From: Methanosphaera stadtmanae DSM 3091
Lineage (GTDB): Archaea > Methanobacteriota > Methanobacteria > Methanobacteriales > Methanobacteriaceae
Direction of reading: 5' to 3'
DNA length: 32,000 nt
Assembly: GCF_000012545.1 (NCBI RefSeq)
Contig: NC_007681.1
Location: 1,020,001-1,052,000, forward strand
Part shown: positions 10,701 through 27,640 of the stretch, piece after piece
Position numbering within the stretch: position 1 is the stretch's first letter
Layout: each line of letters opens with the position of its first letter
Made by a program: the position numbers and the translations under genes
The notes under the pieces: generated by a model
The model's database searches: none
What the model was told of the DNA's origin: nothing
The model's input: the letters and a program-made list of their open reading frames with translations, nothing else

Positions 10701-13678
10701 ATTATTTTATTATTATTAGAATTAGTTAAATTCATTACATAATCGCTTTGTGTGGTAATGGTTATGTTGTCTATGGTATTGTTATTTGAGTTTTCCATGA
10801 TTATTGCAATATCATTTATATTTATTGTTGTGTTGGATACGTTTTCTGCTAGTCCTAAGTATGTGTTTGTAGTATTTACTAGTTTTAAGAAGTTTCCTTT
10901 AGTGTTATATAAGGAGTCTTTTTTCATAATGATGGATGTAATATTAGTATTTTTTGAATTGACTTGTTCTATAGCAACTATATCTGAATTAGTATTATTT
11001 AATGTAGAAACATATGTTAAAGTATTGAATATTTTTGTGTTATTACTATTTTTTGTTAGTATTTCTCTTGCATAATTACCTATTATCTTGTAATGGATAT
11101 AAGAATATGTAATATCTAAACATGAAACTTTTATATTATTACTATTTTCTAGAAATATGCCTATACTTTTATTAGAGGTTATTGTGGATGTTCCATAGGA
11201 TTTGGTGAAGGAATTGTTGTTATTATGCAATGCTAAAGTTCCGTTTGAGATTATTCCATATGCTATATTATTTGAGGTTATGGCTAGATTTTGTATAATT
11301 ATTGTATTATCTTTAGAATCTTGTAATTCTATTCCTTTTGCATTTTCTGAGGTGTGTATGTATATTTGATTTTGGAGAGTGTTTTTATTTGAATTTATTA
11401 ATTGATTTCCAATTGCATTTCTGTTTGTATTAATATAAATATAATTATTATCAAGATAATTTTTATTACTATTATTTAATATTATACCTGTTGAAGTTGT
11501 ATTAATTATATCACTGGTTGTTGTCATATTGATTTTATTGTTTGTTAGGATATTATTTGATGAGTTTATTTTTATACCTATGTTATTTGTTGTAGTATTT
11601 ATGTTAATCTTGTTTGATTCTATATTATTATCATTTTTATTTATTATAATACCAGTATAGGAATTAAATATGTTTGTATTTATATTATTGTTTCTTATAA
11701 GGTTATTTGTAGTATTAACAAGTATTCCATATTGATTATTATCATTATTATTAATGTTTATTTTTTGAATAATCATTGAAGCATTGTTTATTATATTAAT
11801 TGAACCATTTACAATGTAAATTCCATTTTTACTTGAAAGAAATGCTTTTATATTAGAAAAAGTTAAATCTTTATTTGTAATATTACCTGTAATAGTAATA
11901 ATACTTCCATTTTCAACAATATCTGTTTTAATTACACCATTATTATCAAAATAAGTACTATAATTATCATCAGTTAAATTAACATAACTACCAGTTACTG
12001 GAATATTATCTTTAATAATATTATTATCATTAGATGATATTGCCATATTACCAGTTAATACTTGTGAATATATTGTATTATTAATAATAATATTATTTTT
12101 AGAATTTGTATTTAATGTGATAGAATAAATATCGTTAGTTTTTATAATATTGTTAGTGATATTATTATTATCACCTGTTATAGCAATATATTTAGTTATG
12201 GTATTATTAGTTACAGTAGTATTTCCTTTAAGATACATTCCATAACCATTAGTTGTGAAGTTTATAATATTACCTTTTATTGTAGTGTTACGATTAATAG
12301 TTGAATATATAGCAAAAGTTGTACCAGTTGTTACACTAAGTGATCCAAATAAACTTGATGGTTGCATATCATTAAATGATGAATTATATATTTCATTTTT
12401 AAGTGTAGCATTATCTTTACCAGTTACATAAATACCAGTACTTTTATTGAAAATACAATTATCTACATATAAATTACCTTCACTTTGATAAATATCAGTT
12501 TGTTGGTTATTTATAAATGTAGAATTAATAATATTAGTTACAAGTCCACTAATACCATGAATATTAAAATAGTCTGCTCTACCAGTATTTGATGCAATTC
12601 CACTACCAAATTTATAAGTACTAGCAGCATTATAAGCTTTTCCATCTTTAATTGTACAATTAATAATGTCAATAATTTTATCATTAGTTATAGTACCCCA
12701 ACGAGCAATATTACCAATAAATTGACTGTTTAATACAATTGCAGTACCATTATTGTAAATACCCGCTCCAAAATTACCAGTAGATGAAGCTTTTCTATTT
12801 TTTTGGAAAATGCTATTATTCACAATGAGTGTAGAACCATTATTATTTCTAATACCTGCTCCTACTCCTGCAAGATTTTCAAGGAAATACACATTATCTA
12901 CTTCAAGATTACCATAATTATCAACAGTAGCAGTAGGATATAGACTTATACTATCTCCACCATTAGTACCATTACTTAACATATGTTGAATATTAAGATT
13001 TTTAATAATAATTTTACCAGTACCATTTGTAATATTCATACCCCAATTACCACCATAAATATTGTAATAATTAAAGTATGAATCATCACCCCATACACTA
13101 GCACCCGCAACTGTATAATTTACTTCTCCATCAATAATGGTTTTATTAATTCCATCTCCAATGAAGTTTATTTTATAATCTCCATTTACTGTAAGGTTAG
13201 TGTTTCCAACACCAGTATATGTACCTGTGGATATGTGTATATTGTAGGTGTTATCTTTAGTGGTTTGTGTTATTGCTTGATTGATTGTTTTATATGGTTT
13301 GTCAATTGATCCATCGTTTGTATCTGATCCTTTGTCATTGGATACGTAGTAGTTTATTTCTGATTCTTTTTTAAGTGTTTTATTGGTTGTTTTTATTTCT
13401 TCTTTATTTTTTTGTTTTTGTGTTGTAATTTCTTTTGTTTTTATTTCTTTTTTTGGAGTAATCTCTGTTTTAGTATCTTTAATAGTAGACTTTAATTCTT
13501 TATTATCATTGGTTATTATTTTTTCTTTATTATCTATTGTTTGTGATGTTGTCGTGTCTATTGTTTGTTTTTCTATTGAAGTGGTAGTTGTAGTGTTTGT
13601 GTCTGCTGCTGTTATTGTTGAAAGTCCTAGTATTAATACTATTAACAGTATTGAAGACAGTAGTATTTTATTCTTCAT
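7781..13678 (-). CDS. ALP-A: giant secreted Asn/Thr-rich adhesin-like protein (1965 aa). Signal peptide, T/K/E-rich stalk, parallel beta-helix with Pmp-like repeats, C-terminal Ig-like domain repeats
   Basis: Uninterrupted 5.9-kb ORF. The N-terminus MKNKILLSSILLIVLILGLSTITAADT is signal-peptide-like. GSDTNDGSIDKPYKTINQAI is a beta-helix N-cap motif. GVGAGIRNNNGS...NSIFQKN and FGAGIYNNGTA...NSQFIGN resemble the GGAI/FxxN polymorphic-membrane-protein repeat. The C-terminus carries repeated GxVxFKVNGKT...DG.A...YT Ig-like units. GGAGG and GTGAT lie upstream of the ATG. Confidence 0.88.
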   Translation of the reverse strand: MKNKILLSSILLIVLILGLSTITAADTNTTTTTSIEKQTIDTTTSQTIDNKEKIITNDNKELKSTIKDTKTEITPKKEIKTKEITTQKQKNKEEIKTTNKTLKKESEINYYVSNDKGSDTNDGSIDKPYKTINQAITQTTKDNTYNIHISTGTYTGVGNTNLTVNGDYKINFIGDGINKTIIDGEVNYTVAGASVWGDDSYFNYYNIYGGNWGMNITNGTGKIIIKNLNIQHMLSNGTNGGDSISLYPTATVDNYGNLEVDNVYFLENLAGVGAGIRNNNGSTLIVNNSIFQKNRKASSTGNFGAGIYNNGTAIVLNSQFIGNIARWGTITNDKIIDIINCTIKDGKAYNAASTYKFGSGIASNTGRADYFNIHGISGLVTNIINSTFINNQQTDIYQSEGNLYVDNCIFNKSTGIYVTGKDNATLKNEIYNSSFNDMQPSSLFGSLSVTTGTTFAIYSTINRNTTIKGNIINFTTNGYGMYLKGNTTVTNNTITKYIAITGDNNNITNNIIKTNDIYSITLNTNSKNNIIINNTIYSQVLTGNMAISSNDNNIIKDNIPVTGSYVNLTDDNYSTYFDNNGVIKTDIVENGSIITITGNITNKDLTFSNIKAFLSSKNGIYIVNGSINIINNASMIIQKININNNDNNQYGILVNTTNNLIRNNNINTNIFNSYTGIIINKNDNNIESNKININTTTNNIGIKINSSNNILTNNKINMTTTSDIINTTSTGIILNNSNKNYLDNNYIYINTNRNAIGNQLINSNKNTLQNQIYIHTSENAKGIELQDSKDNTIIIQNLAITSNNIAYGIISNGTLALHNNNNSFTKSYGTSTITSNKSIGIFLENSNNIKVSCLDITYSYIHYKIIGNYAREILTKNSNNTKIFNTLTYVSTLNNTNSDIVAIEQVNSKNTNITSIIMKKDSLYNTKGNFLKLVNTTNTYLGLAENVSNTTININDIAIIMENSNNNTIDNITITTQSDYVMNLTNSNNNKIINNYLNGNNFRGGDSTIIQTNSKNNTLSNNIPEIIILTDDNYNDYFVNQIFNINKTVETTIGSDIYNKNMIFNHAITLKNPRNYTIYNGTITINSTETSNLNNLKLNITDDRKTIINIMTGKVNINNANITQTNNEKQAQTIYVNNNSTANIINTNITLNAPEINSEDNTKVSTATYSEGSLTISKGTITVNTTKTEENGKIIALINTNVSNTDITVNAKNNATAIFVNNKKVSISSTNITMNATQNTPIYIENSESSTINRNIILTNTTIQSIFKNTTNLSITKNNIIAENQTEIPLIIIENSNKATITENYLETKDLKGQLTIDVINSTDITMNQNKPGVLITNNNYNQYFTNQTLNDNINMIEFGSDLINKNMIFNHPVIIENPNNYTIYNGTIIFTENATNSNMTGINIHNTDDRQTSLEIYSTVTIKNNIIYHENNNTPAKIIIIGNTLTNVSPYIEDNNIQGKGNNITAIEIINAQFITLYDFNIKLESDNPTTAVKFINSTRVSISSSVIIVKAKNNGIPVIDIINGIRNKVTENYIESIDSQGNNAVKKTGKSNSVSNNFPIGEEFYQTQINITIPSEIKMGKTYPIMINVTSMMDKAVNGTVIVIINGNYLKETTLTLTDGIAIYNYTPTKDGENTIQITYRDGEGKYDENTITQTVNVDKINTILKVDSVKTTPNTQTNIQITLTDEDGNPLNGTVTVIDQYNNTFAIINVIDGKGIFTKIFRGNFNQNLTFIYEETETYNAINTTINVDIHKLSTTVTIDPINAQIGDKINLKATVTDEDGNPVTEGRLVFKVNGKTIKDTNGNIIYTTVTNGIAMIENYTVPANWFKIKSVLNVVYGGTSTYEQTRTNNTIPMNITKKTATMAMTTNTTTAKPGQTIKITVKITEKDANVNEGRVLFKVNGKTMRDNEGYIIYHEVKDGLVTIDYTIPENARAQDYTFTCVYGHKLYNRNDVNSTITVVKS

Positions 13679-13896: not shown

Positions 13897-13908
13897 GGGG
13901 GGGGGGGG
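13897..13908 (-). repeat. Homopolymeric tract G12 (C12 on the ALP coding strand), 218 nt upstream of the ALP-A ATG
   Basis: Counted directly: g at 13897-13908, flanked by a-runs. Confidence 0.95.
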
Positions 13909-14051: not shown

Positions 14052-17000
14052 TTAGTTTTTTACTACAGTGATTGTACTGTTTACATCGTTTCTATTGTAT
14101 AATTTGTTTCCATATACACATGTGAATGTATAGTCTTGTGCTCTTGCATTTTCTGGTATTGTGTATGTTATTGTTACTAGTCCATCTTTTACTTCATGGT
14201 AAATTATATATCCCTCATTATCTCTCATGGTTTTACCATTTACCTTGAATAGGACACGTCCTTCATTTACATTAGCATCTTTTTCTGTTATTTTCACTGT
14301 TATTTTTATTCTTTCTCCTGGTTTTGCTGTTGTAGTGTTTGTTGTCATTGTCATTGTTGCTGTTTTTTTGGTTATATTCATTGGTATTGTGTTGTTTGTT
14401 CTTGTTTGTTCATATGTGCTAGTTCCACCATAAACTACATTTAGTACTGATTTTATTTTAAACCAGTTTGCTGGTACTGTGTAGTTTTCTATCATTGCTA
14501 CTCCATCTTTTATTGTTGCGTATATGATGTTTCCATTAGCATCTTTTATTGTTTTACCATTTACTTTGAATACTAAACGTCCTTCTGTTACAGGATTTCC
14601 ATCTTCATCTGTTACTGTTGCTTTTAGATTGATTTTATCCCCTATTTGTGCATTTATTGGATCTATTATTACAGTAGTGCTGAGTTTATGTATATCCACG
14701 TTTATTGTTGTGTTTATGGTGTTATATGTTTCTGTTCCGTCATAGATGAATGTTAGGTTTTGATTGAAGTTTCCTCTGAAGATTTTAGTAAATGTTCCTT
14801 TTCCATCAATTACATTGATTATTGCAAATGTGTTATTATATTGATCTATTACTGTTACTGTTCCATTTATTGGGTTTTCAAATTCATCTGTTAGTGTTAT
14901 TGGTATGTTTATACGTGTATTTGGTATTCCTTTTACTGAGTCTACTTTGAGTATAGCATTTATTTTATTTACTGTTATAGATTGAGTAATAGTGTTGTTT
15001 TCATATTTACCTGTTGGGTCATTGTATGTTATTTTTATTGTGGTTTCACCATCTTTTGTTGGTGTGTAGTTGTATGTGGCTATTCCATCTGTTAATGTTA
15101 AATTAGTTTCTTTATCTCCAATATTTAGTATAACAGTTCCATTTACTGGTTTGTCTAGCATACTTGTTACATTTATTGTAATTGGATATGTTTTACCTAC
15201 TTTTAATTCTGAAGGTAGTGTTGTTATGTTCATTTGTGTTCTATAGTTTCCATTTGTTGGTTTATTATTGTTTATACTAGCTGTTCCTGTTCCAATTTTT
15301 TTTACTGCATCGTTACCACATACATCTTCACTTTCAATGTAATTATTAGTTATGACATTAATTGTAGGATTGATTATTTCTATTATTGGTGTATCATAGT
15401 TTTTGGTTTTAACAATGACTATATTATTTGTAAGTCTTACTCCTTTGGAATTTATGAATCGTACTGCTGTTATTGGATTTTCACTTTCTAATGTAATATT
15501 ATTTGTAGTTATTCGTATTATAGCTGCAGTTTTACTGTTTGTTACTTCTATTGCTGTGATATTGGATCCTTTTCCATTAATGATATTACTTACTGAAGTT
15601 ATTATTTTTAGGTTGTTTAAGGTTATTATTGTTACATTTTTACCTATTGTTGTAATATTATTCCTACTAAATCCTACACTTCCTGTATTATTAACAATTA
15701 TTGTTTTTGCTGGATTATTAGTATTTTCTTGATATAATGTATTTTTTATTATATTTATTGAATTTGAGTATATTTCAAGGCTTGTTTGTCTATCATCTGT
15801 GTTATGTATGTTTATTCCAGTCATATTACTGTTTGTTGCATTTTTTGTAAAAATAATAGTTCCATTGTATACTGTGTAATTATTTGGATTCTCTATTATT
15901 ACAGGGTGATTGAAAATCATGCTTTTGTTAATTAAATCAGAACCAAATTCTATTATAGTTATATCTGAATTTAGTGTTTGATTTGTAAAGTACTGATTAT
16001 AATTTTCATTTGTTATTAGAACTCCTGGCCTGTTAAATGACATTGTAATATTTGTTGAATTTATTACTTTAACTGCATTATTTCCTTTTAAATCACTTGT
16101 CTCTAGATAATTTCCTATAATTCTTATATTATTTGAGTTTTCAATTATTATTAAATGAGTTTTACTTTGATTTTCTACTTTTATAATATTATTTGTGATA
16201 TTTATCACAGATCTGTTTTCAATTATATTTTGAGTGTTATTATTACTTATAAATATATTTTCATTTATTCTTGTTTCTATGAATGATGAAATATAGTTTT
16301 TTAAATATAATGGAGTATTGTTTGTACCATTTGTAATTATTTTATTATTCTCTAATGTTAAATATCCCTTAGTTTGTATTATTCCTGTTGTATATGGAGA
16401 ATTAAGAGTTATATTATTATCACGTAAAGATGTATGATTTTCACTGATTATTCCTATTGTTTGGTTTTTACTGTATAAATTAAAATTATTTGATCCTATA
16501 TTACTTACAGCAGTATCGTTAAAAATATTTTTTATAAATGCTATCGCATTGTTTTCAGAATTCATTGTGATATTAGACAAATATATAGATCCAATATTTA
16601 TCATTGCAATTATTTTTCCATTTTGTACAGTTTTTGTTGTATTTACTGTAATATTTCCCCTATATATTGTTAAGGATCCTTCTGAGTATGCTGCTGTTGA
16701 TACTTTGGTGTTATCTTCTGAATTTATTTCTGGTGCATTTAATGTTATATTTATATTCATTATATTTACTTTTGAATTTGTATTCACATATATTGTCTGT
16801 GCCTGATTTTCATTATTAATTTGTGTTATATTTGCATTATTAATATTTAGAGTTCCTGCCATAACATTTATAACTGTTTTTCTATCATCTGTTATGTTGA
16901 GTTTTAGAATATTTAAATTACTTGTTTCTGTACTGTTTATGGTTATTGTTCCATTGTATATTGTGTATTTTCTTGGATTTTTTAATGTAATTGCATTGTT

Positions 17001-20000
17001 AAATGTCATATTTTTATTGTAAATGTCTGATCCAAGTATTAATTCTACTGTTTTATTTATTATCCATGTTTGATTTATAAAGTATTGGTTATAATTATCA
17101 TTTGTTAAAATTATTACATTAGGTGTGTTGTTTTGTATGATATTATTTTGACTATTTGTTTGTATAACTGCACTATCTCCACCATAGAAGTTATTACCAT
17201 TGAGGTAATTGTTTATTATAGTATTATTGTTTGAGTTTGTTAAGTTTATAGTATAATCTGTATTGGTGTTTATGGTTATATTATCTATAATATTATTATC
17301 TGAATTTTCTAGTATAATTGCAATATTAACTATATTTATGTTAGCACTTGAAACGTTATTTCTTGAACCAAGATATGTATTTGTAGTATTTACTAGTTTT
17401 AAAAAGGTACTGTTGTAATTTACATAGCTTCCTGACGAAATATACTTCTGCATCCCAATAGCAGTTATATTAGTATTTTCTGAGTTAATTTGTTCTATTC
17501 CTATTAAATCAGGCATTTTATCACTTATTTCTTTTGTAATATGAATGCTTAAATAAAATATCTCTGTATTATTTGTATTTTTTGTTAATATTGTTCTTAC
17601 AGTATTACCTCTTGTAACATAATTCATTGAAGTTGATCTTGAAGATATATTAGTATTTGTTGTATTTTCTAATAATGTACCTATAATAGTATCTGCTGTT
17701 ATGTCTATGTTATTTGAAATAGTATTATTTTTATTTAATGCTTTTTCTCCAGTTATTATAGTTCCATATCCTGTATTATTACTTATTATGTTAATATAAT
17801 TATTTATTTGATTGTTTTGTGAGTTTATTAATTCTACTCCTTTTGCATTTTCTGATGCATATACATATATATTATCATTAATTATATTATTGTCTGATTT
17901 TATTAATTTTTCACCAATAGCATTAATATTACTCATCATAAGTATTCGATTACCAGATAGTATGTTATTATTTGTATTGGATTTTAAGTTTAATCCAATT
18001 ATTGTAGTATCTGTTATTTTAGAAATAGTTGTTGTATTGATTTTGTTGGATAATAAATAGTTATAAGATGATTCAATTGAAATACCTGTATTATTTGTTG
18101 TACTTGTAATATTAATAACATTTTTTTCTAAGTTATTATTATCTTTTTTTATTATAATAGCTTCAATAGGTTTATTAGAATCTATCATTATGTTATTGTA
18201 TGTTATAAGGTTATTATCACTATCAATAAGTAAACCTACTTTATTATTATTTATGATGTTTGTATTGTTAATAATCAAAGAAGCATTATTAATTATACTA
18301 ATTGAACCATTTTGTATGTAAATGTTTTTCTTAGATGAAAGAAATGCTTTTATATTAGAAAAAGTTAAATCTTTATTTGTAATATTACCTGTAATAGTAA
18401 TAATACTTCCATTTTCAACAACATCTGTTCTAATTATGCCCTTATCATCAAAATAAGTATTATAATTATTATTAGTTAAATTAATATAAATACCAGTTTC
18501 TGGAATATTATCCTTAATAATATTGTTATTATTATTGGATGATATAGCTTTATCACCAGTAAATACCTGAGAGTATATTGTGTTATTAATTATAGTATTA
18601 TTTTTAGAATTTCTATTTAATGTGATAGAATAAATATCGTTAGTTTTTATAATATTGTTAGTGATATTATTATTATCACCTGTTATAGCAATATATTTAG
18701 TTATGGTATTATTAGTTACAGTAGTATTTCCTTTAAGATACATTCCATAACCATTAGTTGTGAAGTTTATAATATTACCTTTTATTGTAGTGTTACGATT
18801 AACAGTTGAATATATAGCAAAAGTTGTACCAGTTGTTACACTAAGTGATCCAAATAAACTTGATGGTTGCATATCATTAAATGATGAATTATATATTTCA
18901 TTTTTAAGTGTAGCATTATCTTTACCAGTTACATAAATACCAGTACTTTTATTGAAAATACAATTATCTACATATAAATTACCTTCACTTTGATAAATAT
19001 CAGTTTGTTGGTTATTTATAAATGTAGAATTAATAACATTAGTTACAAGTCCACTAATACCATAGGGATTAAAATAGTCAGATCCACCAGTATTTGATGC
19101 AATACCACTACCAAATTTAAAAGTACTAGCAGCATTATAAGCTTTTCCATCTTTAATTGTACAATTAATAATATCAATAATTTTATCATTGGTTATAGTA
19201 CCCCAACGAGCAATATTACCAATAAATTGACTGTTTAATACAATTGCAGTACCATTATTATAAATACCTGCTCCATAATTACCAGTAGAAGATCCTTTTC
19301 TGTTTCCTTCAAATATTGAATTATTTACAAGTAGTGTTGAACCATTATTACTTCTGATACCTGCTCCTACTCCTGCGAGATTTTCAAAGAAATACACATT
19401 ATCTACTTCAAGATTACCATAATTATCAACAGTAGCAGTAGGATATAAACTTATACTACTTCCACCCCCCGTACCATTACTTAACATATGTTGAATATTC
19501 ATATTTTTAATAGTAATAATACCAGTACCTTTAGTAATATTCATACCCCAATTACCTTTAGTAATTATATATGAATTAAAATAAGAATCATCACCCCATA
19601 CACTAGCACCACCAATAGTATAATTTACTTCTCCATCAATGATTGTCTTATTAATTCCATCTCCTATGAAGTTTATTTTATAATCCCCATTTACTGTAAG
19701 GTTGGTGTTTCCAACACCAGTATATGTACCTGTGGATATGTGTATGTTGTATATGTTATCTTTAGTGGTTTGTGTTATTGCTTGATTGATTGTTTTATAT
19801 GGTTTGTCAATTGATCCATCGTTTGTATCTGATCCTTTGTCATTGGATACGTAGTAGTTTATTTCTGATTCTTTTTTAAGTGTTTTTATTTCTTCTTTAT
19901 TTTTTTGGTTTTGTGTTGTAATTTCTTTTGTTTTTATTTCTTTTTTTGGAGTAATCTCTGTTTTAGTATCTTTTATATTGGATTTTACTTCTTTATTATC

Positions 20001-20165
20001 ATTGACTATTACTTTTTCTTTATTATCTATTGTTTGTGATGTTGTCGTGTCTATTGTTTGTTTTTCTATTGAAGTGGTAGTTGTTGTGTCTGTTGCTGTT
20101 ATTGTTGAAAGTCCAAGTATTAATACTATTAACAGTATTGAAGATAGTAGTATTTTATTCTTCAT
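14052..20165 (-). CDS. ALP-B: giant secreted Asn/Thr-rich adhesin-like protein (2037 aa), paralog of ALP-A
   Basis: Uninterrupted 6.1-kb ORF. The N-terminal ~640 aa and C-terminal ~330 aa are almost identical to ALP-A, and the central part alternates conserved and divergent blocks. It has the same signal peptide, beta-helix cap, Pmp-like repeats and Ig-like C-terminal repeats. Confidence 0.88.
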   Translation of the reverse strand: MKNKILLSSILLIVLILGLSTITATDTTTTTSIEKQTIDTTTSQTIDNKEKVIVNDNKEVKSNIKDTKTEITPKKEIKTKEITTQNQKNKEEIKTLKKESEINYYVSNDKGSDTNDGSIDKPYKTINQAITQTTKDNIYNIHISTGTYTGVGNTNLTVNGDYKINFIGDGINKTIIDGEVNYTIGGASVWGDDSYFNSYIITKGNWGMNITKGTGIITIKNMNIQHMLSNGTGGGSSISLYPTATVDNYGNLEVDNVYFFENLAGVGAGIRSNNGSTLLVNNSIFEGNRKGSSTGNYGAGIYNNGTAIVLNSQFIGNIARWGTITNDKIIDIINCTIKDGKAYNAASTFKFGSGIASNTGGSDYFNPYGISGLVTNVINSTFINNQQTDIYQSEGNLYVDNCIFNKSTGIYVTGKDNATLKNEIYNSSFNDMQPSSLFGSLSVTTGTTFAIYSTVNRNTTIKGNIINFTTNGYGMYLKGNTTVTNNTITKYIAITGDNNNITNNIIKTNDIYSITLNRNSKNNTIINNTIYSQVFTGDKAISSNNNNNIIKDNIPETGIYINLTNNNYNTYFDDKGIIRTDVVENGSIITITGNITNKDLTFSNIKAFLSSKKNIYIQNGSISIINNASLIINNTNIINNNKVGLLIDSDNNLITYNNIMIDSNKPIEAIIIKKDNNNLEKNVINITSTTNNTGISIESSYNYLLSNKINTTTISKITDTTIIGLNLKSNTNNNILSGNRILMMSNINAIGEKLIKSDNNIINDNIYVYASENAKGVELINSQNNQINNYINIISNNTGYGTIITGEKALNKNNTISNNIDITADTIIGTLLENTTNTNISSRSTSMNYVTRGNTVRTILTKNTNNTEIFYLSIHITKEISDKMPDLIGIEQINSENTNITAIGMQKYISSGSYVNYNSTFLKLVNTTNTYLGSRNNVSSANINIVNIAIILENSDNNIIDNITINTNTDYTINLTNSNNNTIINNYLNGNNFYGGDSAVIQTNSQNNIIQNNTPNVIILTNDNYNQYFINQTWIINKTVELILGSDIYNKNMTFNNAITLKNPRKYTIYNGTITINSTETSNLNILKLNITDDRKTVINVMAGTLNINNANITQINNENQAQTIYVNTNSKVNIMNINITLNAPEINSEDNTKVSTAAYSEGSLTIYRGNITVNTTKTVQNGKIIAMINIGSIYLSNITMNSENNAIAFIKNIFNDTAVSNIGSNNFNLYSKNQTIGIISENHTSLRDNNITLNSPYTTGIIQTKGYLTLENNKIITNGTNNTPLYLKNYISSFIETRINENIFISNNNTQNIIENRSVINITNNIIKVENQSKTHLIIIENSNNIRIIGNYLETSDLKGNNAVKVINSTNITMSFNRPGVLITNENYNQYFTNQTLNSDITIIEFGSDLINKSMIFNHPVIIENPNNYTVYNGTIIFTKNATNSNMTGINIHNTDDRQTSLEIYSNSINIIKNTLYQENTNNPAKTIIVNNTGSVGFSRNNITTIGKNVTIITLNNLKIITSVSNIINGKGSNITAIEVTNSKTAAIIRITTNNITLESENPITAVRFINSKGVRLTNNIVIVKTKNYDTPIIEIINPTINVITNNYIESEDVCGNDAVKKIGTGTASINNNKPTNGNYRTQMNITTLPSELKVGKTYPITINVTSMLDKPVNGTVILNIGDKETNLTLTDGIATYNYTPTKDGETTIKITYNDPTGKYENNTITQSITVNKINAILKVDSVKGIPNTRINIPITLTDEFENPINGTVTVIDQYNNTFAIINVIDGKGTFTKIFRGNFNQNLTFIYDGTETYNTINTTINVDIHKLSTTVIIDPINAQIGDKINLKATVTDEDGNPVTEGRLVFKVNGKTIKDANGNIIYATIKDGVAMIENYTVPANWFKIKSVLNVVYGGTSTYEQTRTNNTIPMNITKKTATMTMTTNTTTAKPGERIKITVKITEKDANVNEGRVLFKVNGKTMRDNEGYIIYHEVKDGLVTITYTIPENARAQDYTFTCVYGNKLYNRNDVNSTITVVKN

Positions 20166-20276
20166 ATTGAATCACGTTCCTCCTATATTTTTTATAAGAA
20201 AAATAATCTAATTTTTCCTTATTTTCATTAAAAATTTCTAATTAAAATAAAATTGATTTTAACTAAAATTTGATTT

Positions 20277-20298
20277 TAACTAAGTTTTATCTTAGTTA
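20277..20298 (-). promoter_or_regulatory. Conserved inverted repeat TAACTAAG-N6-CTTAGTTA in the ALP-B upstream leader
   Basis: AACTAAG at 20278-20284 and CTTAGTT at 20291-20297. Confidence 0.45.
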
Positions 20299-20388
20299 TT
20301 ATTAATTTAAGAAGGATTATATTTAAATTTAATCTAATTAAAGTAATATTAAATAGTTTTAGAAAATAGATATAATTTATTAAATAAA

Positions 20389-20397
20389 GGGGGGGGG
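20389..20397 (-). repeat. Homopolymeric tract G9 (C9 on the coding strand), 223 nt upstream of the ALP-B ATG
   Basis: Counted directly: g at 20389-20397. Confidence 0.95.
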
Positions 20398-20415
20398 AAA
20401 AATATATTGTTTTAT

Positions 20416-20423
20416 TTTATAAA
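20416..20423 (-). promoter_or_regulatory. TATA-like box TTTATAAA, 18 nt from the poly-C tract (candidate ALP-B promoter)
   Basis: Identical to the ALP-A arrangement. Confidence 0.35.
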
Positions 20424-20540
20424 AATATTTCACGTGTTTATTTATAAAATAAAATAATATTTATCATTTCTTTTATTAATAACTCTTATATTTTTTGAAT
20501 TATTAAAATAATTAAATCTTTTTATTGGATAATTTAATCT

Positions 20541-23500
20541 TTAGTTTTTTACAACAACTACTGTACTGTTTACATCGTTTCTATTGTATAATTTGTTTCC
20601 ATATACACATGTGAATGTGTAGTCTTGTGCTCTTGCATTTTCTGGTATTGTGTATGTTATTGTTACTAGTCCATCTTTTACTTCATGGTAAATTATATAT
20701 CCCTCATTGTCTCTCATGGTTTTACCATTTACCTTGAATAGGACACGTCCTTCATTTACATTAGTATCTTTTTCTGTTATTTTCACTGTTATTTTTATTG
20801 TTTGTCCTGGTTTTGCTGTTGTAGTGTTTGTTGTCATTGTCATTGTAGCTGTTTTTTTGGTTATATTCATTGGTATTGTATTGTTTGTTCTTGTTTGTTC
20901 ATATGTGCTAGTTCCACCATAAACTACATTTAGTACTGATTTTATTTTAAACCAGTTTGCTGGTACTGTGTAGTTTTCTATTGTTGCTATTCCATCTTTT
21001 ACTGTTGCATAGATAATATTTCCATTGGTGTCTTTTATTGTTTTTCCATTTATTTTAAATACTACTCGGCCTGTGTTTATTGGATTTCCATATATGTCGT
21101 ATACATGTGCTTTTAAGTTGATAGTATCTCCTACTTGTGCATTTATTGTTTCTAATACTATTTTTGTGTTGATTATTGCTCTTGTATTGTTTTCTAGATA
21201 TGTGTCATAGTTTGTATTTATTGTTCTTGTTCCTGTTTTTGTACTTGTTGTTAGTTTATTGTTTGTTATTGTCGTGTTTTTTATTGAGTTTTCGGTGTTT
21301 ATTGTTAAATCATGTTGTCCTATATCTTTTATTATTATTGTATTGTTGTCTATTTGTGTGTTATGTGAGTTTTGTTGTATTTGTATTCCTGTGTTTGCTG
21401 GTCTTATTTCTTCTACTATATCATTTATTTTTATGTTACTGTTTCCATATAGTATCATTTCATTGTTTATTATTGTATTATCTTCACTGTGTGCTAGTCC
21501 TATTCCCATTGTATAGTTTCCATTTCCAAGTATTGTATTGTTGTTTATTGTTGTATTTGATGTTTGATATATTTCCATTCCATATATTACTGATGAGTTA
21601 AGTTGTATGTTATTGTTTGTGATTGTTATGTTGTTTGTTCTGCCTCCACCCATACTTGTTGTTATTATTCCATATGCTAATGGTTCATTATCATCTGTAA
21701 ATGTTGTTGTATTATAGCATGTTCCTGTTATATTGTTTCCTGTTATTGTACAATTGGTTGCTTTATTTCCCATTTGTATTCCATTAACATATCTGTGTCC
21801 TGTTACATGAATATTGTTATCTTTAATTATTGTATTATTTACACGGTCAAGTGTATTTATTCCATAATTAAATCTTCCTCCTGTTACTGTTACATTGTTG
21901 TTTATTATGAGTATGTTGTTACTTTTTCCTGGTGCTGTTATTCCTTCTATTGTACTGTAGAGGTTATCATCAGGATTTGTACTATTATATACTTTAACAT
22001 TATTTTTTGATATTATATTATTTTCTCCACCAACAGATAATATTCCCTGTGTATTTGCTATAGATGTTCCACTTCCATATGTAATAGTTAATGCTGGACC
22101 ATATACTTTTACTGTATTATTTGATATAAGTATGTTACTTCCACCTGTATTTGCTATTGCTGCTGTTTTACCATTTGTGTTATATGTGTAGATTGTATTG
22201 TTTATTATTTTATTATTGTTTCCTGCTGATTTTATGGTGTATTCAGTTGTATCTGTATTGTTAATTTTCATGTTTTTAATTGTTATATTTACATCATCAA
22301 GTTCAAAGCTTGTATTTGTAAATGTAGCATTTTCACCATTTATTATTATGCCTGGTGTTGTTATGCTTATTTGTCCTTTATTTATGAAGTCTCCTTTAAA
22401 TATGATATTAGTATCTTCATCAACACCTATTAATTCATTGTTAAATATGTAACTCTCATAGTTTTCTGGTGTAATTGTTAAGTATTGGTGTTGTGATAAT
22501 TTAAGTACTAGTATGTTAGTAGTTTTAGATGTTATTGTTGGCTTTGCATAAAGAATAATATTATCAGTTGTGTTTCTTGTAATTTCAGTACTAAGAGTAT
22601 CTTCTATTTTATACAAATTTTTTCCTATATAAAATGCATATTTTGTTTTATTAAGTATATCTTTATCATAACTTTCTGGATTTTTTAATATGATACTACC
22701 ATTTATTTTAGCAGTTTCATTAACAAATACTTTACCAGGATTATTTAATGTAAGATTACTAAATGCTATTGTACAATTATCATAAGAATTATTTTCAATA
22801 ATGGTTCTTGTACTATCATTTGTCACATTTATAAATAATGTATCATTAGCACATAAAACATTTTTAAATGTGTTATTTACAAAGGTAGTATTTAAATTAC
22901 TTCCACCATTTATAAAAACAGATCCTGCAAAACCACTAGCATAACTGTTTGTGAAAGTATTATTTTCTATTAAACAGTTACTATAGATTGTCATGGAAAG
23001 ATCTGCTCCAGAACCAGAATATCTACCATCAAAATAATATTGAGGCATATACTGTGCTTTAACACTACTTATATTATTATCTTTAAAAATACAATTAGTT
23101 AATGTTAAATTTAGAGCATCGTTTCCACCAATTGCAGCTCCACCACTCATAGCCCAAGAACTATTAAATTGAATATAATTATTTTCGAAAATAGTATTAT
23201 TTATAAGAGAATACCCTCCAGCCAAATAAAGAGCTGCTCCATAACAATTACCAATTTCATATTGGTTTGTAACTACACAACTTTTGTTTCTAAAAGTACA
23301 ATTATCTATAGTAGTATGATTGCTTGAAGATATAGATACACCACTACCACCATTAGTGAAAGTAGAATTATATATATTTATAATATTTAATGCATTAACT
23401 GTAATATCTTTATTATTATTATCAAAAAGACTATTAGTAACATTTAAATTAGATGTTCCGTATCTATTAAATATATTTTTAATTATATTCACGGTAAATC

Positions 23501-25100
23501 TACTGTTATTTTTAAAAATACAATTATCTATATTAAAATTCAAGGTAATATCAACTTTAGGGTCTATATGTGAATAAATACATGATATGTTATTATTACT
23601 CATAGTAGTATTAGTAATAGTTAAATTACCATTAGTATATATTACATATACATAACCTATTGATTTAGCACTATTATTAGTTAAAGTAGAATTAATAATA
23701 ATTAAATTACCGCCCTCGTTATGTAATAATCCAGCAGGACCACCCCAATTTCTATCATCATAAATATCAGACATGGTACAATTAATAATAGTTAAATTAC
23801 CATAATTAGATAAGGTAGTATTAAGTATAGAGTTAATAATAGTTAAATTACCATAATTATACCTACTGCCTGATAAAGTAATATTATTTAATGTATAATT
23901 ACCATTATAAGTATCTATATACTTGATAATATCGGTTTTATTAGTAATTATAATACCTTTTCCACTTATTAATGCATTACTACCTAATATGGTATCATCA
24001 CTAATAGTTAAATTACCATTACTATACATAGTTGTATTTAATGTACAATTATTCAAAGTTAAATTACCATTATTTGTTCTTGAAGTTTTTATTTCAAAAT
24101 TATTTAATGTATAATTACCTTTATATGTTTGATAATAATTTATTATGTTTGTTTTATTGGTAATTATAATACCTTTTCCACTTATTAATGCATTACTACC
24201 TAATATGGTATCATCACTAATAGTTAAATTACCATTACTATACATAGTTGTATTTAATGTACAATTATTCAAAGTTAAATTACCTCTATTTTGCATCATC
24301 TTAGCATTTAATGTACAATTATTTAGAGTTAAATTACCATTATTTGTTCTTGAAGTTTTTATTTCAAAATTATTTAATGTATAATTGCCATTATATGTTC
24401 GATAATAATTTATTATGTTTGTTTTATTGGTAATTACAGTTCCTTCTTCAATTAGTGTGTTTTCTTTAATTATACAATTATCATCAATAATTATGTAATT
24501 AGCACGAATACTAGAATCAACAGTACAATTATGTAAAGTTAAATTCTTTGCATATATAAATTTTGTTAATATACTGTCATTAAAAGTAAGATTATAATTA
24601 TACATATTAAATTCAAAATCAATAGTTTGATTATTTCCATTAATTGTTACATCTTTTAGATAAGAACCACAAGAAATCCTCTCCTCGGAACTATAATTTC
24701 CGGGTTCTAAATTAATAATCCATTCATAAGAACTGCTTTTTTGAGATATTTCACTAAAAACCTTTTCTATTTCAGTAAAATTATTCACAGTTTTTTCTAC
24801 TGGTGTTGTTTTTAATGTTTTTGTTTTTAATGTTTTATTAGTTGTTACAACTTCTTTAGTTATGTCTTGTTTAGGAGTAATTTCTTTTTTAGTATCTTTT
24901 ATACTGGACTTTACTTCTTTAGTTATGTCTTGTTTTTCTTTATAATCAGTGTTAGTAGGAGTGTTAGTTGTTGGTGTCTGTTTTTCTATGATATTAGTAG
25001 TTGTTGGTGTTGTTGTATTTGTGTCTGTTGCAGATATAGCTGAAAGTCCTAGTAATAATACTATTAATATTATTGAAGATATTAATATCTTATTCTTCAT
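20541..25100 (-). CDS. ALP-C: giant secreted Asn/Thr-rich adhesin-like protein (1519 aa from ATG 25100). Distinct N-terminal beta-helix region; C-terminal 206 aa shared with ALP-A and ALP-B
   Basis: Uninterrupted 4.6-kb ORF. MKNKILISSIILIVLLLGLSAISATDT is signal-peptide-like and homologous to the A/B start. The track start at 25109 is the GTG within the GTGAT SD-like element. Pmp-like motifs include YGAALYLAGG...NNTIFENN, SGGAAIGG...TNCIFKDN and GFAGSVFINGG...NNTFKN. The C-terminal Ig-like module is near-identical to A and B. Confidence 0.88.
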   Translation of the reverse strand: MKNKILISSIILIVLLLGLSAISATDTNTTTPTTTNIIEKQTPTTNTPTNTDYKEKQDITKEVKSSIKDTKKEITPKQDITKEVVTTNKTLKTKTLKTTPVEKTVNNFTEIEKVFSEISQKSSSYEWIINLEPGNYSSEERISCGSYLKDVTINGNNQTIDFEFNMYNYNLTFNDSILTKFIYAKNLTLHNCTVDSSIRANYIIIDDNCIIKENTLIEEGTVITNKTNIINYYRTYNGNYTLNNFEIKTSRTNNGNLTLNNCTLNAKMMQNRGNLTLNNCTLNTTMYSNGNLTISDDTILGSNALISGKGIIITNKTNIINYYQTYKGNYTLNNFEIKTSRTNNGNLTLNNCTLNTTMYSNGNLTISDDTILGSNALISGKGIIITNKTDIIKYIDTYNGNYTLNNITLSGSRYNYGNLTIINSILNTTLSNYGNLTIINCTMSDIYDDRNWGGPAGLLHNEGGNLIIINSTLTNNSAKSIGYVYVIYTNGNLTITNTTMSNNNISCIYSHIDPKVDITLNFNIDNCIFKNNSRFTVNIIKNIFNRYGTSNLNVTNSLFDNNNKDITVNALNIINIYNSTFTNGGSGVSISSSNHTTIDNCTFRNKSCVVTNQYEIGNCYGAALYLAGGYSLINNTIFENNYIQFNSSWAMSGGAAIGGNDALNLTLTNCIFKDNNISSVKAQYMPQYYFDGRYSGSGADLSMTIYSNCLIENNTFTNSYASGFAGSVFINGGSNLNTTFVNNTFKNVLCANDTLFINVTNDSTRTIIENNSYDNCTIAFSNLTLNNPGKVFVNETAKINGSIILKNPESYDKDILNKTKYAFYIGKNLYKIEDTLSTEITRNTTDNIILYAKPTITSKTTNILVLKLSQHQYLTITPENYESYIFNNELIGVDEDTNIIFKGDFINKGQISITTPGIIINGENATFTNTSFELDDVNITIKNMKINNTDTTEYTIKSAGNNNKIINNTIYTYNTNGKTAAIANTGGSNILISNNTVKVYGPALTITYGSGTSIANTQGILSVGGENNIISKNNVKVYNSTNPDDNLYSTIEGITAPGKSNNILIINNNVTVTGGRFNYGINTLDRVNNTIIKDNNIHVTGHRYVNGIQMGNKATNCTITGNNITGTCYNTTTFTDDNEPLAYGIITTSMGGGRTNNITITNNNIQLNSSVIYGMEIYQTSNTTINNNTILGNGNYTMGIGLAHSEDNTIINNEMILYGNSNIKINDIVEEIRPANTGIQIQQNSHNTQIDNNTIIIKDIGQHDLTINTENSIKNTTITNNKLTTSTKTGTRTINTNYDTYLENNTRAIINTKIVLETINAQVGDTINLKAHVYDIYGNPINTGRVVFKINGKTIKDTNGNIIYATVKDGIATIENYTVPANWFKIKSVLNVVYGGTSTYEQTRTNNTIPMNITKKTATMTMTTNTTTAKPGQTIKITVKITEKDTNVNEGRVLFKVNGKTMRDNEGYIIYHEVKDGLVTITYTIPENARAQDYTFTCVYGNKLYNRNDVNSTVVVVKN
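23944..24429 (-). repeat. In-frame 216-bp (72-aa) tandem repeat inside ALP-C, with a nested 54-bp duplication in one copy
   Basis: 23944-24159 and 24160-24429 align, with the first 126 nt identical. The upper copy carries an extra 54 nt encoding NAKMMQNRGNLTLNNCTL. A degenerate third copy flanks each side. It is also visible as the duplicated antisense ORFs 23923-24114 and 24145-24384. Confidence 0.9.
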
Positions 25101-25141
25101 TTTAATCACTTTTCCTCCATAATTTAAATAAATTTTAAAAT

Positions 25142-25161
25142 AACTAAGATTTATCTTAGTT
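25142..25161 (-). promoter_or_regulatory. Conserved inverted repeat AACTAAG-N6-CTTAGTT in the ALP-C upstream leader
   Basis: AACTAAG at 25142-25148 and CTTAGTT at 25155-25161, 42-61 nt upstream of the ATG. The surrounding sequence has diverged from the A/B copies. Confidence 0.5.
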
Positions 25162-25254
25162 GTTACTTAATTTAAAAATAATTATAATTATATTTAACTA
25201 GATTTAACTAACTAAAATCAATTTCTAAACATACAAATTATAATTCTATTAAAA

Positions 25255-25263
25255 GGGGGGGGG
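25255..25263 (-). repeat. Homopolymeric tract G9 (C9 on the coding strand), 154 nt upstream of the ALP-C ATG
   Basis: Counted directly: g at 25255-25263. Confidence 0.95.
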
Positions 25264-25281
25264 AAAATTCCATTGTTTTTA

Positions 25282-25289
25282 TCTATAAA
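25282..25289 (-). promoter_or_regulatory. TATA-like box TTTATAGA, 18 nt from the poly-C tract (candidate ALP-C promoter)
   Basis: Coding strand reads TATAATTTTTATAGATAAAAACAATGGAATTTT-C9. An ungapped alignment with the A/B distal region gives about 32/46 identical positions and keeps both the box and the 18-nt spacing. Confidence 0.35.
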
Positions 25290-25620
25290 AATTATACTGG
25301 AGTTTATTTTTTAAATAAAACCTTAATTATCTTTACTTTTAAATATATGATTATATAATTATAATTTAATTTATTATGAAAATACATGATGATTTATTTA
25401 ATCCATATTTTTTCTACTGTTTGTTTATTGACATATATATTATATACTTAAAAAAAGAGTGTTCTTATAAGAACTGCAATATTTATTTTAAAGTGGTTTT
25501 CAACAAGATTTTCTTGTTATGTTTATAATTATCTAAAATATGTTGAATATTTTGTATAATATAAATCATGAAAATATACAAATTAATAGAGTAAAATAAG
25601 TCTCATACTCATTAATAAAT

Positions 25621-25628
25621 AAAAAAAA
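25621..25628 (-). terminator. Oligo-T (T8) terminator candidate downstream of pycA
   Basis: A8 on the plus strand, 23-30 nt beyond the pycA stop. Further downstream are the palindrome GTTCTTATAAGAAC (25461-25474) and a T7 run. Confidence 0.4.
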
Positions 25629-25650
25629 GTTAAAAGAAATAAAAAGGGAA

Positions 25651-27141: not shown

Positions 27142-27640
27142 TTTTATTAGTATCCCCTTTGATATGTTTCTTTAAAATGTAAATTATTCATAATCTTACA
27201 TTATATTATTTTCTATATATACTATCTATTTATTTATTAATATACACTTTACTAAATATAATGTATCTATTAAAAATTCAGTAATTTTTATTTTTAGATT
27301 TATTAAATCCTCTTTTTCAAATATCTAAATTTATATTAGTTATTCTATTTTTAATTTAATTTGCTTTTTTATGTTTTAGAAGTTTTTTAGAAGGTATTTT
27401 TTTCTATTTTATATATAAATATTTTATATCTAGTTTAAAATACTATATTTTAATGTTTTTTTTTAATATTGTATTTATAAAAAAAGTTTTTCTCTTTGTT
27501 TTATTATTTTAAATAATAGGATAATGAACAATCTATAATAACTACTTTTTATGTATATAATTATTAATGAATTTAATTATTTTTTTAGAAAAAAAAAGTT
27601 ACTGTTTATATAATTAAATTTACTTATTTTAGTGATTAAG

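What the first reader, a model, noticed from the sequence alone, without database searches (positions are those of the whole stretch)
25255..25300. Poly-G tract and its 18-nt spacing to a TATA-like box are retained in the diverged ALP-C upstream region
Seen: G9 at 25255-25263, 154 nt upstream of the ALP-C ATG. This upstream region is not a recent copy of the A/B units. The proximal part has large indels, and the distal part aligns ungapped at only about 32/46 positions. It still keeps the tract, a TATA-like TTTATAGA (plus strand TCTATAAA, 25282-25289) exactly 18 nt away, and the downstream inverted repeat. No ALP gene lies upstream here (pycA ends about 390 nt away). The tract therefore travels with the 5' end of the ALP genes, not with their 3' ends.
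Established: archaeal TATA boxes are centred near -26/-27, which predicts a TSS a few nt into the tract.
Inference: initiation within a homopolymer could support reiterative transcription (RNA polymerase slippage). The tract length could also set leader length or promoter strength.
Basis: partly seen in the sequence, partly recalled or inferred. Interest (0 to 1): 0.75.

Follow-up and report, generated by a model that had tools for sequence, protein, structure and literature searches.

The report
Variable poly-C tract heading archaeal adhesin genes
A run of 8-12 cytosines sits in a conserved upstream cassette of some adhesin-like surface-protein genes of the human gut archaeon Methanosphaera stadtmanae and changes length between strains, so it looks like the slippage-prone promoter switches known from bacterial adhesin genes; whether it controls expression is untested.

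Summary
G9 lies at 25255-25263, which is C9 on the gene strand. TTTATAGA lies exactly 18 nt upstream of it, and the ALP-C ATG lies 154 nt downstream. The window's only three G/C runs of 7 or more each sit upstream of one of the three ALP genes.

The organism is Methanosphaera stadtmanae. The genes belong to its Asn/Thr-rich large protein (ALP) family.

In 17 assemblies the tract belongs to a conserved 5' cassette found at three chromosomal loci. The cassette consists of:
- a palindrome TTTATTT-N3-AAATAAA
- a TATA-like box
- AAAACAAT
- a T-run
- the C8-12 tract
- an AT-rich block
- the inverted repeat AACTAAG-N6-CTTAGTT
- the Shine-Dalgarno sequence and signal peptide

The tract is never interrupted. 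Its length and the adjoining T-run vary between strains that differ by about 0.3%, so the TATA-to-tract spacing is 17-19 nt, not a fixed 18. This variability is similar to that of A/T homopolymers of the same length.

The module is specific to a subfamily. Five other ALP genes lack it. Two other Methanosphaera species carry unrelated C9-10 tracts upstream of single ALP genes.

My best reading, at about 0.4, is a slipped-strand contingency element in the ALP promoter region, analogous to the Bordetella fim C-stretch. A transcription start inside the tract is geometrically plausible but unproven and has evidence against it. Reiterative transcription has no support.

The parts
25255..25263 (-). 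Poly-C tract (C9) of the ALP-C 5' cassette; G9 on the + strand.
   Evidence: The orthologous alleles in 13 other assemblies are C8-C11, plus one C5 in a hybrid long-read assembly.
25264..25281 (-). 18-nt spacer TAAAAACAATGGAATTTT. It holds the conserved AAAACAAT and the variable T-run.
   Evidence: AAACAAT..A.TTT is the best-conserved stretch across all three cassette variants. The T-run is 3-5 nt between strains.
25282..25289 (-). TATA-like box TTTATAGA (candidate promoter P1).
   Evidence: One mismatch to the methanogen consensus TTTAWATA (consensus from general knowledge). Invariant in all C-type alleles.
25303..25319 (-). Palindrome TTTATTT-N3-AAATAAA at the 5' boundary of the cassette.
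   Evidence: I9; the same element in B is I19 and in A is I11. Homology between cassette copies in different genomic contexts starts here.
25172..25197 (-). Conserved AT-rich near-palindromic block with a TATAAT core (candidate alternative promoter P2).
   Evidence: About 85% identical between the C and A/B types. Retained in L126, which lacks the tract block.
25142..25161 (-). Inverted repeat AACTAAGAT-AA-ATCTTAGTT. The core AACTAAG-N6-CTTAGTT is conserved and the spacer varies.
   Evidence: It forms a hairpin in both leader folds. The only arm change, A to G, would give a G-U pair.
25114..25118 (-). Shine-Dalgarno GGAGG of ALP-C.
20541..25100 (-). ALP-C coding sequence: 1519 aa from the ATG, with a signal peptide and a right-handed beta-helix.
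   Evidence: It is 88% identical to 'member of asn/thr-rich large protein family' of M. stadtmanae DSM 3091.
20389..20397 (-). Poly-C tract (C9) of the ALP-B cassette. Its TATA-like TTTATAAA is at 20416-20423.
13897..13908 (-). Poly-C tract (C12) of the ALP-A cassette. Its TATA-like TTTATAAA is at 13927-13934.
14052..20165 (-). ALP-B coding sequence (2037 aa).
7781..13678 (-). ALP-A coding sequence (1965 aa; Big_3_5 domains).

Best explanation
The tract is a slippage-prone poly(C)/poly(G) run of 8-12 bp built into a conserved 5' cassette that heads one subfamily of M. stadtmanae ALP genes. The cassette covers the promoter region, leader and signal peptide. The tract gains and loses bases by slipped-strand mispairing during replication. 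That step is supported as heritable length differences between strains. I infer that these changes alter the geometry of the ALP promoter region. They could change what lies at and just downstream of the start site of the TATA-like box 17-19 nt upstream. Alternatively they could change the spacing and helical phase between the upstream block (palindrome plus TATA-like box) and the downstream AT-rich block and inverted repeat. Under this reading each ALP paralogue can be tuned or switched independently and heritably. That would make it an archaeal counterpart of the homopolymer promoter switches of bacterial adhesin families. The link from tract length to expression is inferred and has not been shown.
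For: 1. The tract is real and non-random. The window has three tracts against about 0.3 expected, each upstream of an ALP gene and on the coding strand.

2. It is embedded in a conserved cassette present at three loci. In every one of 21 cassette alleles from 17 assemblies, apart from one doubtful hybrid-assembly allele, it is an uninterrupted run of 8-12 C. This holds even though the two cassette types have diverged to 65-85% identity and the intergenic DNA is otherwise very AT-rich.

3. Its length is polymorphic. Among 10 pycA-locus alleles that are otherwise about 97% identical over 590 nt there are six T/C-run haplotypes. The 59 nt immediately upstream are essentially invariant: 100% identical over the aligned part in the nine other pycA-locus alleles apart from L003 (98.3%).

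4. The tract differs in all five of the closest strain pairs, which have 15-18 SNPs per 7.1 kb. Its states do not follow the flanking SNP haplotypes, which indicates recurrent change.

5. Paralogues A and B in this window differ (C12 against C9) within upstream cassettes identical at 363 of 397 aligned positions.

6. A TATA-like box, a conserved palindrome and the cassette's 5' boundary lie within 57 nt upstream, as expected of a promoter.

7. Unrelated C9/C10 and C10 tracts lie on the coding strand 380 and 238 nt upstream of single ALP genes in two other Methanosphaera species. One of them differs by one base (C9 in five contigs, C10 in one) among contigs that encode the identical protein.

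8. The genes encode large surface proteins with conserved ends and variable middles, in a cluster whose copy number differs between strains. This is the class of gene that carries such switches in bacteria (PMC1891110).
Against: - There are no expression or TSS data.
- The tract is not more variable than A/T homopolymers of similar length. Eight of 19 runs of 7 nt or more in 12.1 kb are length-polymorphic, and one A-run also has three alleles. What is unusual is that a G/C run persists, not its mutation rate.
- Eight of 13 C-type alleles keep T+C+T = 17 nt and differ only in where the T/C boundary lies. That pattern suggests substitutions, or assembly noise at the junction, as much as slippage.
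- Assembled metagenome consensus sequences can misreport homopolymer length by one base.
- In an archaeal promoter the TATA-to-start distance is set by the transcription machinery. A homopolymer at the start site would therefore not change promoter spacing the way it does between bacterial -35 and -10 elements.
- My strict pattern (TTTATANA, 15-22 nt, C8 or more, TTT) matched no Methanosphaera or Methanobrevibacter species-representative genome in GTDB. The reference M. stadtmanae genome therefore apparently lacks a tract of 8 or more in this form.
- One allele (L126) has an intact ALP gene with the downstream block but no tract block.
- On plasmid pNP174, three of the four G/C tracts of 8 or more are not next to ALP genes.
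Confidence: 0.4

Rival explanations
1. The TATA-like box is the ALP promoter and transcription starts inside the C-run. RNA polymerase slips on the homopolymer (reiterative transcription). The result is heterogeneous poly-C 5' ends or abortive products that set expression or leader length.
For: The geometry fits. A 17-19 nt gap plus a start 22-25 nt after the box puts +1 at about C3-C8 of a tract that is always at least 8 long. The TATA-like box, the AAAACAAT element and the tract are conserved together across the diverged cassette types. Starts within homopolymers are the known trigger for reiterative transcription in bacteria; this is general knowledge, and papers are listed.
Against: No TSS or 5'-end data exist. 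My search found no paper describing reiterative transcription in archaea. The predicted start region has no purine for 17-24 nt, which is a poor initiator. The implied leaders of 154-225 nt are long for this organism. The leader folds no better than shuffled sequence, with z-scores of -1.3 and -0.9. The L129 variant keeps the tract but has a poorer TATA-like box at about 20 nt. This model does not explain why the DNA length varies.
Confidence: 0.15
2. The tract is a passenger with no regulatory role. It arose once in an ancestral cassette. It persists because the cassette is copied and homogenised between ALP genes by duplication and gene conversion. Its length drifts like that of any long homopolymer.
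For: All M. stadtmanae instances are homologous, so they represent one origin. The ALP cluster is recombinogenic, with 1 to more than 3 genes and mosaic proteins. The tract's variability equals that of A/T controls. The tract block is absent from L126 and shrunken in L003. No ALP gene outside the subfamily has it. G/C tracts also occur at non-ALP sites on pNP174.
Against: No allele shows an interrupted tract, even though the two cassette types have diverged by 15-35% around it. The flanking 15-60 nt are the most conserved part of the cassette. Two non-homologous tracts sit upstream of ALP genes in other species. On pNP174, G/C runs of 8 or more are about 70-fold over-represented, 4 observed against 0.06 expected from base composition (my arithmetic). 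That excess argues for some maintaining force.
Confidence: 0.27
3. The tract acts in RNA as part of a long 5' UTR. It could be a C-rich anti-Shine-Dalgarno partner or a protein-binding site that controls translation or stability.
For: UUUUCCCCC is complementary to the SD region GGAGGAAAA except for one C-A mismatch (reading). The A/B leader's minimum-free-energy fold pairs the tract with the SD.
Against: The C-type fold does not use this pairing. Neither leader folds better than shuffles. There is no Rfam match. The model requires a start upstream of the tract, where no better promoter is evident. The tracts of the other species have no GGAGG partner.
Confidence: 0.08
4. The tract is a sequencing or assembly artefact.
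For: Homopolymer lengths are error-prone. The two OPERA hybrid assemblies give the odd values, including C5 in L003.
Against: The tract is present in the window and in 16 independent assemblies from several studies and assemblers, always at the same place.
Confidence: 0.01

Closest known systems
Bordetella pertussis / B. bronchiseptica fimbrial promoters (fim2, fim3, fimX, fimN) with their 'C-stretch' and 'fim box'
   Same: A family of paralogous adhesin genes each carries a conserved promoter element containing a poly-C run. The run differs in length between paralogues and strains: C7-C22 there (PMC1891110) and C8-C12 here.
   Different: In Bordetella the tract lies between an activator (BvgA) site and the -10 element of a bacterial sigma-70 promoter, and its effect on transcription has been measured. 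Here the system is archaeal (TBP/TFB/RNAP), the tract lies downstream of the TATA-like box at or near the predicted start, and no effect on expression has been measured.
Mycoplasma hyorhinis vlp genes (poly-A tract in the promoter of each tandem variable lipoprotein gene). From my own knowledge; not checked here.
   Same: Tandem surface-protein paralogues have a highly conserved 5' region (promoter, leader, signal peptide) and divergent bodies. A homopolymer lies in each promoter.
   Different: The vlp tract is poly-A between the bacterial -35 and -10 elements and gives a strict ON/OFF switch by spacer length. Here the tract is poly-C in an archaeal promoter region.
Neisseria meningitidis opc (poly-C) and porA (poly-G) promoter tracts. 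From my own knowledge.
   Same: A G/C homopolymer in the promoter of an outer-surface protein gene gives graded expression.
   Different: Those are bacterial promoter spacers. Here the geometry and the transcription machinery differ.
Reiterative transcription at bacterial promoters that start in homopolymers (pyrBI, codBA, pyrG). From my own knowledge; papers are listed.
   Same: A homopolymer lies at the predicted start site.
   Different: Those runs are 3-4 nt, respond to nucleotide pools and are fixed in length. This run is 8-12 nt and varies at the DNA level, and the phenomenon has not been documented in archaea.
Coding-region homopolymer switches surveyed across prokaryotes, including archaeal genomes (PMC2831843)
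   Same: The idea is the same: homopolymers as mutational switches.
   Different: That survey covers poly-A and poly-T inside coding genes, acting by frameshift. This tract is G/C and intergenic.

Membership tests
Simple-sequence contingency locus (phase-variable or tunable promoter) | A homopolymer or short repeat long enough to slip (8 nt or more), located in the promoter or upstream region of the regulated gene | tested here: met
   C8-C12 lies 154-225 nt upstream of the ATG, 17-19 nt downstream of a TATA-like box, inside a conserved 5' cassette. Whether that box is the active promoter is unknown.
Simple-sequence contingency locus (phase-variable or tunable promoter) | Repeat length differs between closely related strains, with invariant flanks | tested here: met
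   There are six T/C-run haplotypes among 10 alleles with near-identical flanks. The tract differs in all five closest strain pairs. The rate is comparable to A/T runs of equal length.
Simple-sequence contingency locus (phase-variable or tunable promoter) | Length heterogeneity within a clonal population (a high, reversible switching rate) | not testable with these tools
   This needs raw reads or amplicon sequencing. Only assembled consensus sequences were available.
Simple-sequence contingency locus (phase-variable or tunable promoter) | Gene expression depends on repeat length | not testable with these tools
   No transcript or protein data were found for M. stadtmanae ALP genes. PMC11532034 states that the regulation of ALP expression remains unanswered.
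Simple-sequence contingency locus (phase-variable or tunable promoter) | Association with surface or host-interaction genes | tested here: met
   The proteins have signal peptides and are beta-helix or Big_3_5 proteins of the Asn/Thr-rich ALP family.
Archaeal core promoter (BRE / TATA / initiator) | A TATA box matching TTTAWATA | tested here: met
   TTTATAGA and TTTATAAA each have one mismatch. Such matches are common in this AT-rich DNA.
Archaeal core promoter (BRE / TATA / initiator) | A pyrimidine-purine initiator 22-27 nt downstream of the TATA box | tested here: not met
   The region is pyrimidine-only for 17-24 nt.
Archaeal core promoter (BRE / TATA / initiator) | A mapped transcription start | not testable with these tools
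   No TSS map was found for Methanosphaera.
Reiterative transcription site | A start site within a homopolymer, with non-templated heterogeneous 5' ends | not testable with these tools
   Only the geometry predicts a start in the tract. There are no RNA data.
Known RNA family (Rfam) | A match to a covariance model | tested here: not met
   There were 0 matches at E of 1 or less over 13500-27500.

The most novel reading that the evidence does not exclude
These poly-C tracts would be the first simple-sequence contingency loci described in Archaea. Each ALP paralogue of a human gut methanogen would carry its own heritable, reversible expression dial in an archaeal (TBP/TFB-type) promoter. That would give cell-to-cell and strain-to-strain diversity in surface adhesins. 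Because the tract sits at the predicted start site rather than in a promoter spacer, the mechanism would also differ from all the bacterial cases.
Probability: 0.3. Interest if true: 0.8.

Novelty: new variant of a known kind. Interest (0 to 1): 0.6.

Why it matters
How gut methanogens regulate their many adhesin-like proteins is an open question; a 2024 analysis says so explicitly (PMC11532034). In the searchable literature I found no report of repeat-mediated phase variation in any archaeon. The cassette offers a specific, cheap test: measure tract length against ALP expression and map the 5' ends. A positive result would extend contingency-locus biology to the archaeal transcription machinery. 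It would also help explain strain-level surface variation in a human-associated archaeon that stimulates host immunity (abstracts listed). A negative result would still leave an unexplained, maintained G/C homopolymer in a genome of about 27% GC.

Tried and rejected
- Organism. I first assumed Methanobrevibacter smithii, from the gut metagenome hits. Protein names corrected this to Methanosphaera stadtmanae.
- GTDB genome scan with TTTATANAN{15,22}CCCCCCCCTTT. It gave 114 scattered chance hits and no methanogen of these genera. This used the only genome scan, so a genome-wide census of M. stadtmanae was not possible.
- Exact-protein look-ups. Look-ups of ALP-C with either start codon and of the DSM 3091 orthologues P0006 and P0007 found nothing on record. 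The reference-strain allele therefore could not be read.
- Methyltransferase anchor. It gave contigs that break before the ALP cluster.
- Viral-contig scan. It found nothing.
- Rfam. No match.
- Leader RNA folding. The folds were no better than shuffles, so I did not pursue a structured-RNA model or build a covariance model.
- Bacterial promoter and terminator scan. It was uninformative, with no terminator-like site at the tract.
- TATA-to-ATG calibration. I tried to calibrate typical distances from 26 other genes. TATA-like matches are too common in this AT-rich DNA for a firm result.
- 20-nt inverted repeat around CACGTG in the A/B cassette. It is absent from the C type, so I do not count it as part of the module.
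- Fricke et al. 2006 genome paper. It was not held.

Full report
**The observation**

- G9 lies at 25255-25263, which is C9 on the strand of the gene.
- TTTATAGA lies at 25289-25282 in gene orientation.
- An 18-nt gap (TAAAAACAATGGAATTTT) separates the box from the tract.
- 154 nt separate the tract from the ATG at 25100.
- An inverted repeat AACTAAGAT-AA-ATCTTAGTT lies at 25161-25142.
- pycA (25651-27141, same strand) ends 387 nt upstream.

The two other large ORFs on this strand, A (7781-13678) and B (14052-20165), have the same arrangement with TTTATAAA, an 18-nt gap, and C12 (13897-13908) or C9 (20389-20397). These three tracts are the only G/C runs of 7 or more in the window. There are 12 overlapping G7 matches against 0.32 expected, and none of 100 shuffles reached that count.

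**What the genes are**

The organism is Methanosphaera stadtmanae, not Methanobrevibacter. The best named relatives of ALP-C are 'member of asn/thr-rich large protein family [Methanosphaera stadtmanae DSM 3091]' at 88% identity.

ALP-C has a right-handed beta-helix and ALP-A has Big_3_5 domains. A and B are 71% identical. C shares with them only the signal peptide and linker, plus the last 210 residues at 87%. These are mosaic surface proteins with conserved ends.

The exact pycA protein occurs in 847 blocks of the assembly collection. Ten human-gut metagenome loci (L001-L010) show that the ALP cluster downstream of pycA differs between strains in gene number and size.

**The tract is part of a conserved 5' cassette**

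I aligned all copies. In gene orientation the cassette has these parts:
- a palindrome TTTATTT-N3-AAATAAA
- 12-13 nt
- TTTTTATA(G/A)A
- a stretch containing AAAACAAT
- a T-run
- the C-run
- T3-4
- a less conserved stretch of about 60 nt
- an AT-rich block with a TATAAT core
- the repeat AACTAAG-N6-CTTAGTT
- a variable stretch (30 nt in C, about 100 nt in A/B)
- GGAGG, the ATG and the signal peptide

The C type and the A/B type are 65-85% identical through this region. Identity peaks at the palindrome, at the TATA-AAAACAAT segment, at the AT-rich block with the repeat, and at the start of the gene.

The cassette occurs in three unrelated contexts:
- downstream of pycA
- downstream of an IMP cyclohydrolase gene (L127, L132, L153)
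- downstream of IMPDH (L125, L152)

In both types, homology to the other copies begins about 57 nt upstream of the tract. A third variant (L129/L131) keeps AAACAATAGAATTT-C11 but has a poorer TATA-like sequence about 20 nt away.

**Length variation**

| Cassette and locus | Source | T-run / C-run / T-run |
|---|---|---|
| C type, pycA locus | window | T4 C9 T4 |
| C type, pycA locus | L001 | T4 C10 T3 |
| C type, pycA locus | L002 | T5 C10 T4 |
| C type, pycA locus | L004 | T4 C9 T4 |
| C type, pycA locus | L005 | T5 C10 T4 |
| C type, pycA locus | L006 | T5 C11 T4 |
| C type, pycA locus | L007 | T3 C10 T4 |
| C type, pycA locus | L008 | T5 C10 T4 |
| C type, pycA locus | L009 | T4 C10 T4 |
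| C type, pycA locus | L010 | T4 C9 T4 |
| C type, second locus | L127, L132 | T5 C8 T4 |
| C type, second locus | L153 | T4 C9 T4 |
| A/B type | 8 alleles | C9 to C12 |

- No allele is interrupted.
- The only short tract (C5, L003) comes from a hybrid long-read assembly. That allele also has a 90-nt deletion of the repeat block and a fragmented ALP gene, so I do not rely on it.
- The 59 nt upstream of the tract are 100% identical over the aligned part in the nine other pycA-locus alleles apart from L003 (98.3%).
- The strains differ by 15-23 SNPs per 7.1 kb. The tract differs in each of the five closest pairs, and its states do not follow the flanking SNP haplotypes.

Two cautions apply.
- Eight of 13 C-type alleles keep T+C+T = 17 and differ only in where the T/C boundary lies. 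That could reflect substitutions or junction noise.
- Among 19 homopolymers of 7 nt or more in 12.1 kb, eight are length-polymorphic, and one A-run also has three alleles.

The tract therefore mutates about as fast as any long homopolymer. What stands out is that a pure G/C run is maintained in such AT-rich DNA.

**How general it is**

The module is not family-wide. These ALP genes lack it:
- P0118 and the second ALP of L152, both in M. stadtmanae
- P0102 and its neighbour
- P0045

One C-type gene (L126) keeps the AT-rich block, the repeat and the SD, but has unrelated sequence where the tract block should be.

My strict pattern found no Methanosphaera or Methanobrevibacter genome among the GTDB species representatives. 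The reference M. stadtmanae genome therefore apparently lacks a tract of 8 or more in this form. I could not read that genome.

Two other Methanosphaera species have non-homologous tracts on the coding strand upstream of single ALP genes.
- C9 (five contigs) or C10 (one contig) lies 380 nt upstream of P0042, and all six contigs encode the identical protein.
- C10 lies 238 nt upstream of P0087 on plasmid pNP174 of strain ISO3-F5.

On that plasmid, G/C runs of 8 or more number four against 0.06 expected from base composition. Three of the four are not next to ALP genes. One of those, a C8, lies 83 nt upstream of xerA.

**Where transcription starts**

Two candidate promoters exist.

With a 17-19 nt gap and the usual archaeal distance of 22-25 nt from the end of the box, the start would fall at about C3-C8, always inside the tract. 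That distance is general knowledge.

In favour of P1:
- the box, AAAACAAT and the tract are conserved together
- the cassette boundary and a palindrome lie where an upstream regulator site would be

Against P1:
- the start region has no purine for 17-24 nt
- the leaders would be 154-225 nt, whereas TATA-like motifs of 26 other genes lie mostly 26-47 nt from the ATG (a noisy measure)
- the L129 variant weakens the box

*P2* is the AT-rich block. Its TATAAT core ends 18-19 nt before the repeat, so a start would fall within the left arm of the repeat. It is as well conserved as P1, and it is the part kept in L126.

The repeat has invariant arms and a variable spacer. That pattern fits either a dimeric regulator site or a 5'-terminal hairpin. 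The single arm change (A to G) would keep a G-U pair.

Leader folds are not better than shuffles, with z-scores of -1.3 and -0.9, and Rfam has no match. No TSS map or ALP expression study for this organism was found.

**Interpretation**

I rank four readings.

1. *A slipped-strand contingency element that tunes or switches individual ALP genes (0.4).* DNA-level length variation is the one property actually shown. The gene class, the paralogous cassette and the promoter-region position match the Bordetella fim C-stretch closely. There, each fimbrial paralogue carries a conserved promoter element with a C-run of C7-C22 whose length affects transcription (PMC1891110).

2. *A passenger maintained by cassette copying (0.27).* This cannot be excluded, because all M. 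stadtmanae copies share one origin and the variability is ordinary for the tract's length.

It has no direct support, and the pyrimidine-only start region argues against it.

4. *An RNA-level anti-SD role (0.08).* This is weak.

The claim that the tract travels with the 5' end is supported. The claim of a fixed 18-nt module across the family is only partly supported.

**Novelty**

In the searchable open literature I found no report of homopolymer or other repeat-mediated phase variation in archaea, and none on the regulation of ALP genes. I file this as a new variant of a known kind. It is a bacterial-type contingency tract placed in an archaeal promoter region, at or next to the predicted start site rather than in a promoter spacer.

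Noticed in passing
window 27739-27745 (ORF 28032-28607 is the remnant): The biotin-protein ligase (BirA-like) gene next to pycA is frameshifted in this window by two single-base deletions 6 nt apart. All eight Illumina metagenome alleles encode an intact 322-aa protein. This is either a real pseudogene or an error in the source sequence.
   Followed up: partly
window 7781-25100; L001-L010 downstream of 11491: The ALP cluster between pycA and the ribosomal-protein operon differs between strains. It holds one to three or more genes of 1355-2464 aa, and the proteins are mosaics with conserved 5' and 3' ends. Assemblies often break at these genes.
   Followed up: partly
window 20404-20460 and 13915-13971: In the A/B cassettes the TATA-like box and AAAACAAT form the right arm of a 20-nt, 95% complementary inverted repeat centred on CACGTG. 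The repeat is absent from the C-type cassette.
   Followed up: no
window 20250-20290 versus 13770-13790: The direct repeat TTAGTTAAAATCAA just after the inverted repeat is present twice in the ALP-B leader and once in the ALP-A leader. Other strains also vary.
   Followed up: no
L133 152-1360: In one strain an IS240-family transposase gene sits directly upstream of the RNA methyltransferase gene, where this window has ALP-A.
   Followed up: no
L140 11273-12133; L157 31457-32545 (pNP174 131457-132545): Tyrosine recombinase genes lie next to ALP genes in other Methanosphaera species. On pNP174 a C8 tract sits 83 nt upstream of xerA. This raises the possibility of a recombinase-based layer of variation.
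   Followed up: no
L154 about 455-468: An A14 run lies about 60 nt upstream of the ATG of ALP P0045, which has no poly-C tract.
   Followed up: no
L155-L158 (plasmid pNP174 of Methanosphaera sp. ISO3-F5): G/C homopolymers of 8 or more are strongly over-represented: G12, G10, C9 and C8, against 0.06 expected at 29% GC. Only one is near an ALP gene, and the others are unexplained.
   Followed up: partly
L003 11880-11930: One hybrid-assembly allele combines a short tract (C5), a 90-nt deletion removing the AT-rich block and inverted repeat, and a fragmented ALP gene. It is either a decaying pseudogene or an assembly artefact.
   Followed up: partly
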